DNA of 64,000 nucleotides from positions 23,498,001 through 23,562,000 of the forward strand of contig OX597816.1 of the NCBI GenBank assembly GCA_951406725.2. The letters run 5' to 3'. The notes below the pieces were generated by a model that worked only from the letters and a program-made list of their open reading frames with translations, was not told the origin of the DNA and did no database searches. This DNA comes from Octopus vulgaris (taxonomy: Eukaryota). This document shows, piece by piece, positions 10,715 to 55,290 of the stretch. Each line of letters starts with the position of its first letter. The first letter of the stretch is position 1. Made by a program: the position numbers and the translations under genes.

Positions 10715-11280
10715 AAAAATGTTTCAGCCCAAAAGCTGCGGTCATGCTGGGGCAACACCGTTGATTGTGCTACACTAGTATGTGAAACTCCCCCTGATAC
10801 GTGGCATTTGGTCAACAAGGGAGTTCGACGCCGCTGCCCGCATCTGCGATTCCTGCCGAGAGATAGGTTCAACTGGAACCTCTGACAAGAAGAGATCGAG
10901 TTTAGTTGTAAAGAAACCCACATCCACACCATGCAGGTCTCTCAGGCATTTAGGAAGGATATTAAAAAGTTGTGGTCCGTTGAAACCCAAGCTGTTGCAG
11001 TTTCTTGTCCTGTATTTTGATGGTGATGTTGGGATCTTTGGCACCATGCAGTGGTGCCCCGTTCTTTCAATGCCAACATTTGGGACAAGGCTCTCCAGGA
11101 CCTTCCAGATGTATATCGCTGCATATCTCTCCTGCCTTCGCTCCAGGGAGAAGAGTTTTAATACTTTCAGTCTTTTCCAGAAGCTGATACGTTGCATTGA
11201 GACGATCATTTTAGTGTAGCTTCGCTGGATTGCTTCGAGTTTTACTGTTAGCTTTATATTGTGTGGTGACCATAGTTGTA
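10715..11280 (-). pseudogene. 3' fragment of CR1/L2-group LINE ORF2 plus 3'UTR
   Basis: ORF 10775-11383: LEAIQRSYTK..WKRLKVLKLFSLERRQERY..IYIWKVL..GPQLFNILPKCLR..FTTKLDLFL, typical post-RT C-terminus; followed by a CAGCATGACC-hairpin-GAAAC tail. Confidence 0.85.
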
Positions 11281-11442
11281 GTAGTCCCAGCGGTTGAGGA
11301 CGAATGTCTTCCAGAGGACCATCAGTGTCTCCTGAACTAAAAACAACCAAATCACTACGAGATATATAGTACTTACACTTCAAAAGCCGAAAAAACAGAT
11401 CTATATATATGGCATCCCTTGTTCACAAGGCAGTTTACAGGT

Positions 11443-15008: not shown

Positions 15009-15303
15009 GTATGTGAATATATGCACCCAGTTTCTGCCTTTAAACCAACAGATTATAATGAAAAATCTGCGTGTGTGCGCGCGAGTTTGTGTATATATAG
15101 AAATAACGAAATATGTTTTCATTTATATATGCATAGATTTGACAAAAAATCAGTTGCAGGCAGAGGCTTCTTGATAATTTTAGTAACTTCTATGCTGAAG
15201 TAGAAGCAACATGTTCTTTGTCTATCTCCTTAACTTCTTGGAGATTTTAGGTATAATTATACTAATGTCTCCATCTGTTCTAATTTAATTAAATTCTGTC
15301 TTT

Positions 15304-15392
15304 GTGCAGCTGAAGATTGGTCTACATTTTAAATTGATGTAAGGATTGCATTGTTCAATTAAATGGAGTTGCATGAAACGATCGTACTGCAT
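15304..15392 (+). ncRNA. type I hammerhead ribozyme, intact core, long stem II
   Basis: GTGCAG-CTGAAGA-T-TG..ACATTT..AATTGA/TCAATT..AAATG..CA-T-GAAA-CGATCG-TA-CTGCAT: 6-bp helix I, complete core, palindromic stem III, GUA cleavage triplet. Confidence 0.8.
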
Positions 15393-15704
15393 TAGCTCTG
15401 AATATCTTTGTTGCTTATTTTGATTTTAATCACCTTACTTTGAAATTGTATGGATAATACCGTACTAAATTCTGGTGCCTCAACTTAAGTACCATATTCA
15501 TCTGAATCTAAATTTTTGCTATAAATAGATTTGTAGAGTTTTGAGATTTTCTTTTTCTTTTACTAGACTATTGTTGTATGAAAAGTGTGGTCATCTGTTA
15601 ATACTTAACGTAAGAACGGGTGAAATGCCGCTAAGCATTTTGTCCGGCGCAGTTCTGTCATCTTGTCTCTTTAATCTGGTAGAATATATTAAAAATGAAT
15701 AAAT

Positions 15705-20217: not shown

Positions 20218-21380
20218 AGTAATAAGAGAGAGTCCACATGTGGTCACTCTAACGCTAGATATAGATCCGCAATGTGAATCCACCACTAAAGAATTGTTCT
20301 CGAGAATTAATTCAATACGCCAAGAATGTAAGCGAGCAGGACAAATGAAAAATAACGAAAAAATAGATTAACTCTATACAATTGTTTAATCGTTAATAGA
20401 TTGTGTAATTTTACTTACGTAATCATTTTCGAATCGTCAGTAGAGTATATCAAAAAAATATAATTTGCTGAACCGAACGCCAAAATCCACACGAAGCCAA
20501 ACAAAGGCGAACGGCACAGCTGATTATATTTCCAGTTACGTTCAAATATCCTCATTCTGGCGCGTTAAAAAAACGGATGTAAATACTACCCCAGTAATTT
20601 ACTGCCGGTTTGAGAACATACTAATTTATAACTAAAATCACAATAAGGGTGAAAAAAATTGAATATTAATAAATAACATTAATCTAAAACACCAAGTGGC
20701 CTAGCGTATAAAAAGACTGGGATACAGTAAAAATTATTAATACAATAAGAGAGAGTCCACATGTGGTCACTCTAACGCTAATAATTTTTACTGTATCCCA
20801 GTCATTTTATACGCTAGGCCACTTGGTGTTTTAAATTAATGTTATTTATTAATATTCAATTTTTTTCACCCTTATTGTGATTTTGATTATAAATTAATAT
20901 GTTCTCAAACCGGCAGTAAATTACTGGGGTAGTATTTACATCCGTGTTTTTAACGCGCCAGAATGAGGATATTTGAACGTAACTGGAAATATAATCGGCT
21001 GTGCCGTCGCCTTCGTTCGGCTTCGTGTGGATTTTGGCGTTCGGTTCAGCAAATTATATTTTTTTGATATACTCTACTGACGATTCGAAAATGATTACGT
21101 AAGTAAAATTACACAACCTATTAACGATGAAACGATTGTATAGAGTTAATCTATTTTTTCGTTATTTTTCATTTGCCTGCTCGCTTACTTTCTTGGCGTG
21201 TTGAATTAATTCTTGAGAACAATTCTTTACAAATCTAGCGTTAGAGTGACCACATGTGGACTCATTCTTATTACTTGTATTAATAATTTTTACTGTATCT
21301 CAGTCTTTTTATACGCTAGGCCACATGGTGTTTTAAATTAATGTTATTTATTAATATTCAATTTTTTTACCCTTATTGTG

Positions 21381-21435: not shown

Positions 21436-21734
21436 AGATTCAGATGAATAAGGTACTTATGTTAAAAGAATTTTTGATTATAATCAAAATAAGCAACAAT
21501 GATATCCAAGGTAGTGTAGTACAATCGTTTCATGCTACTTCATTTTATTAAATACTGTAAGTATTACCTCAGTTTTAAAATGTCGAGCAATCTTCAGCCA
21601 CATATAGAATTTTTTAATTAAGCGGATTGCTCGATAGTTTAAAACAGAGGTGATACTTACAGTATTTAATAAAATGAAGTGACATGAAACGATTGTACTA
21701 CACTACCTTGGATATCATTGTTGCGTATTTTGAT

Positions 21735-21738
<4 letters not shown>
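21436..21738. mobile_element. (TA)n-flanked fold-back of the 15304 HHR family
   Basis: 21478-21592 inverted with 21625-21738; shares the 3' tail aagtacc.tattcatctgaatcta with 15487-15510. Confidence 0.75.
21515..21602 (-). ncRNA. type I hammerhead ribozyme motif
   Basis: Minus strand TGTGG-CTGAAGA-T-TGCT..AGCA-T-GAAA-CGATTG-TA-CTACA. Confidence 0.75.
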
Positions 21739-35186: not shown

Positions 35187-35290
35187 ACATGGACGGACAC
35201 TGATGAAGCTGCACCGACAATATTGCAAAGTTGCATGTGCAACAGTGAGTAGTCGCTGCAGTGGAAACATATGTAGGTCAAACGTGCTAT
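35187..35290 (+). ncRNA. type I hammerhead ribozyme motif with extended stem II
   Basis: CATG-gacg-GAC-a-CTGATGA-a-GCTGCA-c-CGAC..GTCG-c-TGCAGT-g-GAAA-CATATG-TA-g-GTC-aaa-CGTG; followed by AATAAA and (TA)n. Confidence 0.72.
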
Positions 35291-53992: not shown

Positions 53993-54164
53993 CGGGAAGG
54001 TTTACGAAAATAAACAAAAGACGAAGGCAGGTGGAGTACAAACAAACAAATGTATTAGTATGGTGCTCAGGAATGGAAATAGAACAAGTCTTTTACGTTT
54101 CGAGCCTACGCTCTTCGACAGAAAGATACACAGAAAAGAAACAAGGAGAGAAACAAGGAGAGAA

Positions 54165-54165
<1 letters not shown>
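53992..54165 (-). mobile_element. family F element with minimal HHR at 54090-54125
   Basis: CTTT-CTGTCGA-A-GAGC-GTAG-GCTC-GAAA-CG-TA-AAAG on the minus strand; (TA)n on both sides. Confidence 0.72.
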
Positions 54166-54245
<80 letters not shown>

Positions 54246-54248
54246 CGT

Positions 54249-55290
54249 ATCAGGCTGAGTAAAAAGTAAGCAGCGTAAGTACCATTACAATCAACACACT
54301 TTTGCCAACGAGTTACAAGTTTGTTTATTCCGGTAAAATAAAAACCTAGACTTCCGGAGCTGATTAACTCTTTGAATGCACTTTCAGCATCAGTTTGATT
54401 TTTGAACTCCTTCTCTCGTAGGATACCATCAATGTACTTGAAAAGATGGTAGTCGGTAGGAGAAAGGTCGTAACCAAGTTCCCTGAACTTCTGGAGCGTC
54501 ATTAGTGAAACCTGTGGTCGAGCATCATGATGAAGAATGATTGGTTCTCTTCTGTTGACCAGTCTGAGACGGAGGAGTAGCAGTTTTTCGTTCATTTTGG
54601 CACTTTCATGGCAATGTTTCTGCAGTAATGGTTTTTCCGGGTTTTCAGAAGTTATGATGGATGAGTCCAGCAGTACACCACGAAACAGTCACCATAACAT
54701 ACTTTTTAAAGAGCTCGGGTTTAGGGAAGGTTTTCGGGGCTTCATTTTGGTCCAACAGCTACAAAAAACGTTTTTTATTATTGTACAGAATCCACTTCTC
54801 ATCGCAAGTTGCAATACGGTCGAGAAATGGATCGGTCTGCTTATGGAGAAGAAGCAACGAGCAAATTTCCTATCTGCGCATTTTCTGATTTTCATTCAAA
54901 TTGTGTGGTATCCATTTTTGAACTTTTTGGGTTTTCCGATCGCATGCATTTGGTTGCAGGCGGTTTTCTGGCTAACTTAAAGCTCTTTTGTCAGTTCGCG
55001 ATTGGTTTTACGTAGATCTTTCTCATTGACGGTCTTTAATTGACCGTCATCGATCACAGATGGTCGTCCACTACGCTCACGATCTTCAAGGCTCAGGTCT
55101 CCACTGCGAAATCGTTTAAACCATTTTCGAGCTGACCACTCCCTAGTCATTTCCGTATCAAATATTTTTTTGATATTACGAGCAGTTTCAGCTGCTTTAC
55201 ATCCCAATTTGGAATTTGAATAGCAAAATTGCTCGAATATCGCACATTGACAGTTCCATTTCAGATGATTGTAACAACGATGAAAAAAAT
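54249..55290 (-). pseudogene. decayed near-full-length mariner transposase
   Basis: Minus strand MELSMCDIRAILL..GCKAAETARNI..WFKRFRSGDLSLEDRERSGRPS..LVNRREPIILHHDARP..DLSPTDYHLFK..GINKLVTRWQKCVDCNG; multiple frameshifts; TIR-like TA|TCAGGCTGAGTAAAAAGTAA at 54249. Confidence 0.92.

What the first reader, a model, noticed from the sequence alone, without database searches (positions are those of the whole stretch)
15304..15392. Apparently intact HHR with U-U at the base of a long stem II, supported by helix I covariation
Seen: complete core and GUA triplet. Helix I is GTGCAG/CTGCAT here, TGTGG/CTACA in the homologue at 21515-21602(-), and ACTCTA/TAGAGT in the distinct family at 21071. All three have U10.1-U11.1 instead of the usual G-C, a 45-60-nt stem II domain and a 6-nt (near-)palindromic stem III insert. 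Inference: a structural subclass maintained by selection; this copy is the best candidate for a still-active ribozyme.
Basis: partly seen in the sequence, partly recalled or inferred. Interest (0 to 1): 0.72.

Follow-up and report, generated by a model that had tools for sequence, protein, structure and literature searches.

The report
Hammerhead ribozyme of octopus Penelope retrotransposon
This is one damaged copy, among thousands, of a hammerhead RNA motif (likely self-cutting in intact copies) at the tail of a Penelope-type jumping gene; its U-U mismatch is already common in that element group, and only its unusually long stem II looks undescribed.

Summary
The motif is real: complete type I hammerhead core, GUA at 15384-15386, 6-bp helix I, U10.1·U11.1, 58-nt stem II domain, palindromic helix III. 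[quoted passage not shown] The genome has 3896 U·U long-stem matches (control 5). Helices covary between families.

The interpretation only partly holds. U·U is published: 14 of 25 Hydra-clade families in Craig 2021 File S2, axolotl HHR_Amex2 (cleaves), Perreault 2011; this scan also noted it in a phage. It is not tied to the long stem: 2120 long-stem motifs lack it (mostly G-C) and 643 short-stem motifs have it. This copy is a poor candidate: G15320 (C in 40 of 46 copies) breaks the base of stem II, and 21 of 46 copies are more intact. No cut-site pile-up in genomic copies or RNA reads.

Not found in print: the 44-63-nt stem II with a covarying distal hairpin, and at least two G-C/U·U switches within one lineage. 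Cleavage untested.

The parts
15141..15520 (+). 5'-truncated 3' terminal repeat (pLTR) of a Penelope-like retrotransposon, 'family A'; no ORF in the window copy
   Evidence: copies 93-96% identical, homology limits; same repeat downstream of RT and GIY-YIG in L270-L272, L274-L276; no PLE protein hit in window
15304..15309 (+). helix I, 5' strand
   Evidence: (pair probabilities 0.73-1.0)
15310..15316 (+). core C3-A9 (CUGAAGA)
15317..15374 (+). stem II domain, 58 nt: U10.1 (15317) and U11.1 (15374); basal pairs 15318-15320 with 15373-15371; long irregular hairpin with a covarying distal 6-bp helix in family-typical copies. This copy: G15320 breaks the third basal pair, G15343 also departs from the family
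15375..15386 (+). G12-A15.1, 2-bp helix III with palindromic loop (8-nt palindrome 15378-15385), U16.1, A17; predicted cut after 15386
   Evidence: self-duplex -10.0 kcal/mol
15387..15392 (+). helix I, 3' strand
21515..21602 (-). family B hammerhead (sister of A), U·U, basal stem II intact; left arm of inverted pair 21479-21592 / 21625-21738 whose right arm lacks the 5' half of the core
   Evidence: GIY-YIG upstream in L231
21071..21146 (+). family C hammerhead, U·U, 45-nt stem II domain; family occurs head-to-tail at 523-530 bp in 4 places; parent ORF not found
20371..20446 (-). inverted family C copy with G12 changed to U (core broken)
   Evidence: (arms 20342-20510 / 21007-21175)

Best explanation
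This is a decaying, 5'-truncated copy of the 3' terminal repeat of a Penelope-like retrotransposon, likely of the Hydra clade, and it carries that element's type I hammerhead motif, which is predicted to cut after GUA at 15386 weakly and mainly as a dimer in intact family members, while this copy is predicted to be impaired. Shown: the anatomy, the copy numbers, the RT and GIY-YIG upstream in longer copies, covariation between families, and this copy's departures from the family. Inferred: two RNAs pair through the 8-nt helix III palindrome to build a stable helix III; U·U is a tolerated, probably slower, substitute for G10.1-C11.1; selection acts on the transposing source elements, not on inserted copies; cutting trims or separates tandem or read-through transcripts and is probably not required for insertion.
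For: Parent element: GIY-YIG in sense directly upstream of the family's UTR in 19 of 30 loci, none in another arrangement; L272 shows inverted truncated repeat, RT, EN, about 3.3 kb of UTR and the repeat with the hammerhead. DKT, CxCX5C, CxxC, CxH, no CCHH cysteine pair, (TA)n at 3' ends match the Hydra description; Hydra-1_Obim is listed from octopus; nearest named proteins are octopus. Fixed 3' end, variable 5' ends, inverted partner copies. Covariation, including GATC/AATT exchange that keeps the palindrome (5 vs 5 of 11 rows). U·U precedent with measured cleavage: axolotl HHR_Amex2, 22% as monomer, more as dimer. This copy: (C at 15320 in 294 of 305 RNA reads).
Against: No cleavage was measured. 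No 5'-end pile-up at the cut site: 0 of 29 pieces in the 3'-probe sample, 3 of 80 in all loci and those 3 lie in one cluster on contig C17; no read-end pile-up in two RNA runs, 6% of each read. Even a family-typical monomer prefers another fold (-21.6 vs -18.0 kcal/mol; basal stem II probability 0.07-0.10). No same-strand pair of family A hammerheads in any fetched locus, so a cis dimer partner is not shown. The element (at least 6 kb) is longer than the '<3 kb' typical of Hydra, the RWK motif was not seen, and no tree against reference PLEs was built. All family A ORFs seen are broken.
Confidence: 0.82

Rival explanations
1. One reading: U·U, long stem II and palindromic insert form one selected subclass, and this copy is the best still-active example.
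For: All three window motifs share the three traits; 3896 genomic matches; covariation.
Against: 2120 long-stem motifs have non-U at both positions, mostly G-C, including sister families with the homologous long stem; 643 U·U motifs have short stems; U·U with 3-8 nt loops in 14 of 25 published Hydra families; G15320 breaks basal stem II.
Confidence: 0.05
2. The U·U families are catalytically dead or nearly so; the fold is kept as a structural signal (for example for the element's own protein) or is simply carried along.
For: No cut-site footprint in genome or reads; hammerhead mutants of an anole PLE still insert in vitro and no reads end at its cut site (PMC11167929); core only slightly better kept than flanks among copies (10/351 vs 258/4821 changes, p=0.045).
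Against: All catalytic core positions and GUA are invariant across 11 aligned rows while helices covary (note the rows were found with core-containing probes or patterns); U·U hammerheads cleave in axolotl.
Confidence: 0.1
3. Family A is a non-autonomous retrozyme- or SINE-like repeat rather than the tail of a coding element.
For: The 2.4 kb upstream of the hammerhead has no ORF and no RT/EN match; family C occurs head-to-tail at 523-530 bp.
Against: EN directly upstream in 19 of 30 loci and RT in L272, L273. The reading may still hold for family C, whose parent was not found.
Confidence: 0.03

Closest known systems
Hammerheads of Hydra-clade Penelope-like elements (Craig et al. 2021, PMC8557442; seen: passages, section 11, supplement part with the Hydra sheet and File S2)
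   Same: Type I, sense strand, near the 3' end; 14 of 25 listed families read U after the core and U before GAAA, several followed by the same U-A, G-C, C-G pairs as families A and B; (TA)n targets; an octopus member is listed.
   Different: Published loops II are 3-10 nt; here the domain between the core halves is 44-63 nt with a covarying distal hairpin. The parent has a 3' UTR of about 3.3 kb. The passages I saw do not comment on U·U.
Axolotl HHR_Amex2 retrozyme hammerhead (Cervera and de la Peña 2020, PMC7229834; seen: passages and section 15)
   Same: Type I, U·U at the base of helix II, 2-bp helix III with tetraloop, about 60,000 copies, weak monomer and stronger dimer cleavage.
   Different: Short tandem non-coding repeat with canonical helix II and loop-loop contact; here the tail of a coding element with a long stem II.
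Minimal PLE hammerheads (Cervera and de la Peña 2014, PMC4209133; seen: parts 1-2 of 4)
   Same: In PLE terminal repeats, palindromic helix III, proposed dimer action, mostly solo or inverted truncated copies.
   Different: That paper reports G10.1-C11.1 as highly conserved and helix II of 6-8 bp.
Natural U10.1-U11.1 variant (Perreault et al. 2011, PMC3088659; seen: section 8, passages, term search of supplements)
   Same: Same mismatch, stated there to be the best tolerated mispair at this position.
   Different: Reported as a rare variant; here thousands of copies in many families.

Membership tests
Type I hammerhead ribozyme | Core CUGANGA, GAAA and NUH in type I order | tested here: met
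Type I hammerhead ribozyme | Helix I closing the motif, with covariation | tested here: met
   6 bp; 4 of 6 pairs change on both sides across 11 rows
Type I hammerhead ribozyme | Helix II next to the core | tested here: inconclusive
   Met for the family (3 bp beyond U·U; 3 of 5 pairs covary); this copy keeps 2 of 3 and the pairs have probability 0.0
Type I hammerhead ribozyme | G10.1-C11.1 (consensus trait, not obligatory) | tested here: not met
   U·U; published tolerated variant
Type I hammerhead ribozyme | Site-specific self-cleavage | not testable with these tools
   No assay possible; indirect footprints blank
Type I hammerhead ribozyme | Match to an Rfam hammerhead model | tested here: not met
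   none at E<=10 in 15100-15600; the long insert is the likely reason (inference)
EN+ Penelope-like element | RT followed by C-terminal GIY-YIG upstream of the repeat | tested here: met
   the sister-family EN used as query scores Pfam GIY-YIG E=2.7e-4, 21.6 bits, just under the 22.6 cut-off; the RT piece of L226 has no Pfam hit
EN+ Penelope-like element | 5'-truncated and inverted copies, fixed 3' end | tested here: met
EN+ Penelope-like element | Same-strand tandem terminal repeats flanking the ORF | tested here: inconclusive
   no same-strand family A pair in fetched loci; loci at most 10 kb
Hydra clade | DKT in place of DKG | tested here: met
   L272 translation
Hydra clade | CxCX5C linker; CxxC and CxH near the EN end; no CCHH | tested here: met
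   EN rows of L245, L272, L274, L275 read by eye
Hydra clade | RWK motif | tested here: inconclusive
   not seen; L272 is cut at its 5' end by the inverted copy
Hydra clade | (TA)n insertion bias | tested here: met
   most 3' ends run into (TA)n or related microsatellites; the window copy has only a short TATA
Hydra clade | Placement in the Hydra clade of an RT tree | not tested
   no reference PLE proteins were fetched
Non-LTR retrozyme | Short non-coding head-to-tail repeats | tested here: not met
   family A: coding parent, no tandem; family C does show 523-530 bp head-to-tail repeats

The most novel reading that the evidence does not exclude
Octopus Hydra-clade elements carry thousands of hammerheads whose stem II has grown into a conserved 44-63-nt domain that standard descriptors miss. 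The domain is a functional module (a tertiary contact or a binding site for the element's protein), and the repeated G-C to U·U switches, each accompanied by U7 to A7 in the lineage tested, tune cleavage rate. Sister families would be a natural matched series for asking what PLE hammerheads are for.
Probability: 0.2. Interest if true: 0.55.

Novelty: new variant of a known kind. Interest (0 to 1): 0.27.

Why it matters
The copy itself is ordinary retrotransposon debris. The family set is modestly useful: about 6,000 long-stem hammerhead matches in one genome fall outside the 7-17-nt spacer used in a published core search and this one is missed by Rfam, so animal hammerhead counts may be underestimates. 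G-C and U·U sister families with homologous stem II give ready pairs for measuring what the 10.1-11.1 pair contributes, and for the open question of what hammerheads do in Penelope-like elements.

Tried and rejected
Rfam, whole window (best 150 of 287 rows seen, none a hammerhead) and 15100-15600: nothing relevant. 'Family A is non-autonomous' was overturned. The young Neptune-like 811-aa element is not the parent: its 3' end carries a different motif and it matched no family A or B locus except one antisense fragment in L037. Family D next to a Neptune-like ORF in L237: rejected, only 1 of 20 loci (the probe's own) has it downstream. Metagenome scan: 14 hits, 2 identical, none with convincing helix I plus helix II; treated as chance. 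Cut-site footprint: blank. Transcription of this locus: unique flank 15024-15185 has zero depth in X23 and X24, but these are another species label than the main DNA holders and 6% was read, so no conclusion; one search listed no holder on record as RNA. The EN protein tree leaves the position of B open, so the switch count rests on the DNA tree. PMC10085705 passages had no bearing. Lünse et al. 2016 was not held and may describe such variants. R-scape was not available.

Full report
Observation. The sequence at 15304-15392 is as described: helix I (15304-15309 with 15387-15392), CUGAAGA, a 58-nt spacer that begins and ends with U, GAAA, an 8-nt palindrome over helix III, and GUA ending at 15386. 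Rfam does not see it (one search showed 150 of 287 rows, none a hammerhead).

It is a repeat. The genome (2.8 Gb; nearest named proteins are octopus) gave 1291 first-look candidates, of which the 40 scored are 93-100% identical. The window copy spans about 15141-15520. Copies share a 3' end that mostly runs into (TA)n or similar microsatellites, differ at the 5' end, and often have an inverted truncated partner. The motifs at 21515(-) (family B, sister of A) and 21071 (family C) are also high-copy (2279 and 545 candidates).

Parent element. The first 2.4 kb upstream is AT-rich, non-coding and internally duplicated, which first suggested a non-autonomous element. A probe from its far end overturned this: 19 of 30 loci have a GIY-YIG endonuclease directly upstream in sense, none otherwise. 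L272 shows inverted truncated repeat, RT, endonuclease, about 3.3 kb of UTR and the terminal repeat with the hammerhead; its ORF is broken. DKT, a CxCX5C linker, CxxC and CxH near the end and no CCHH cysteine pair fit the Hydra clade as defined in PMC8557442 section 11. RWK was not seen and no reference tree was built, so the clade is likely, not proven.

Is the fold selected? Across 11 rows (the window copy and 10 real copies standing for related families), 91.8% of cells pair against 81.5% in shuffles, 10 of 21 pairs change on both sides, and the covariation score is 0.448 against 0.246±0.028 (0 of 500; slid controls at most 0.146). Caveats: the rows are related, and the distal hairpin came from RNAalifold on 10 of them. 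The helix III loop switches between GATC and AATT and stays palindromic, as expected for dimer pairing (self-duplex -10.0 kcal/mol for A). Among inserted copies found without using the hammerhead, the core is only slightly better kept than the flanks (10/351 vs 258/4821, p=0.045), consistent with selection on source elements and drift afterwards (inference).

Is U·U plus long stem a subclass? No. Genome patterns give 3896 U·U long-stem matches (control 5), 2120 long-stem matches with non-U at both positions, mostly G-C in the 100 rows listed (control 3; loop restricted to RATY), and 643 U·U short-stem matches (control 1). The G-C set includes sister families with the homologous stem II and the same endonuclease type. 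In a DNA tree of 12 terminal repeats with positions 10.1 and 11.1 masked, A+B nest inside G-C families (100/100) and a single U·U clade with family F is rejected (p-AU 0.004): at least two switches, or a switch and a reversal; F rests on one fetched copy. Other motifs in fetched loci show A·C, A·G, A·A, A-U and G·U at this position, many as single copies.

Literature. U10.1·U11.1 is a published natural variant (PMC3088659 section 8). Axolotl HHR_Amex2 has it in about 60,000 copies and cleaves 22% as monomer, more as dimer (PMC7229834 section 15). Most directly, File S2 of PMC8557442 lists 25 Hydra-clade families, and by my count 14 read U after the core and U before GAAA, several with the same next three pairs as A and B; all have loops II of 3-10 nt. 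I found no description of the long stem II in Hydra-type or octopus hammerheads; Lünse et al. 2016 was not held and the supplements of the 2026 preprint (passages only) are closed, so either may bear on this.

This copy. It has G at 15320 where 40 of 46 aligned family A copies have C (one family B row dropped), as do 294 of 305 RNA reads; G15343 is T in 29 of 30 independent pieces. The basal stem II pairs have probability 0.0 here and 0.07-0.10 in family-typical L015; both monomers prefer an alternative fold. 21 of 46 copies pass core, 6-bp helix I, 3-bp basal stem II and helix III; this one fails. In the sample not chosen by the hammerhead, 7 of 27 pass a similar test. It is the only one of the three window motifs with a broken basal stem II.

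Activity. Untested. 0 of 29 pieces found with a 3'-fragment probe start at the cut site; 3 of 80 across all loci do, all in one C17 cluster. RNA reads of the family come from both strands with no end pile-up. For an anole PLE, the hammerhead cleaves in vitro, is dispensable for insertion, and likewise shows no read ends at the site (PMC11167929 passages), so these blanks do not argue strongly against catalysis.

Verdict. Observation confirmed; interpretation partly supported. A known kind of element with a known mismatch; the long covarying stem II and the repeated switches make it a modest new variant. Interest 0.27.

Noticed in passing
window 35192-35283 (+): A further type I hammerhead-like motif: full core, A10.1·G11.1, long stable stem II (-27.8 kcal/mol for the stretch), palindromic ATAT loop, weak helix I.
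   Followed up: partly
window 20342-21370: Family C as an inverted pair plus a direct 88-bp tail 502 bp apart; head-to-tail spacing of 523-530 bp at 4 genomic places suggests a retrozyme-like unit. The sub-threshold Rfam WsnRNA46 hits at 20679-20839 are just this palindrome.
   Followed up: partly
L150:1566-3998 (G000:C6) and about 150 scored copies: Very young Neptune-like PLE with an intact 811-aa frame; its 3' end has a minimal hammerhead-like motif with the U3-A8 core covariation and G10.1-C11.1.
   Followed up: partly
L272, L270, L271 (family A 3' UTR): 3' UTR of about 3.3 kb built from nested, about 70-76% identical internal duplications; unusually long for Hydra-type elements.
   Followed up: partly
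fetched loci: Many hammerhead families with varied 10.1/11.1 states (A·C, A·G, A·A, A-U, G·U), suggesting this pair is relaxed in this genome's PLE hammerheads.
   Followed up: no
L037:1326-1421: Single antisense fragment of a Neptune-like RT joined to a family A UTR; probably a template switch or nested insertion.
   Followed up: no
window 10778-11422(-), 41276-41848(-), 54005-54688(-): Open frames that look like LINE RT and mariner transposase remnants (labels from recall, not tested).
   Followed up: no
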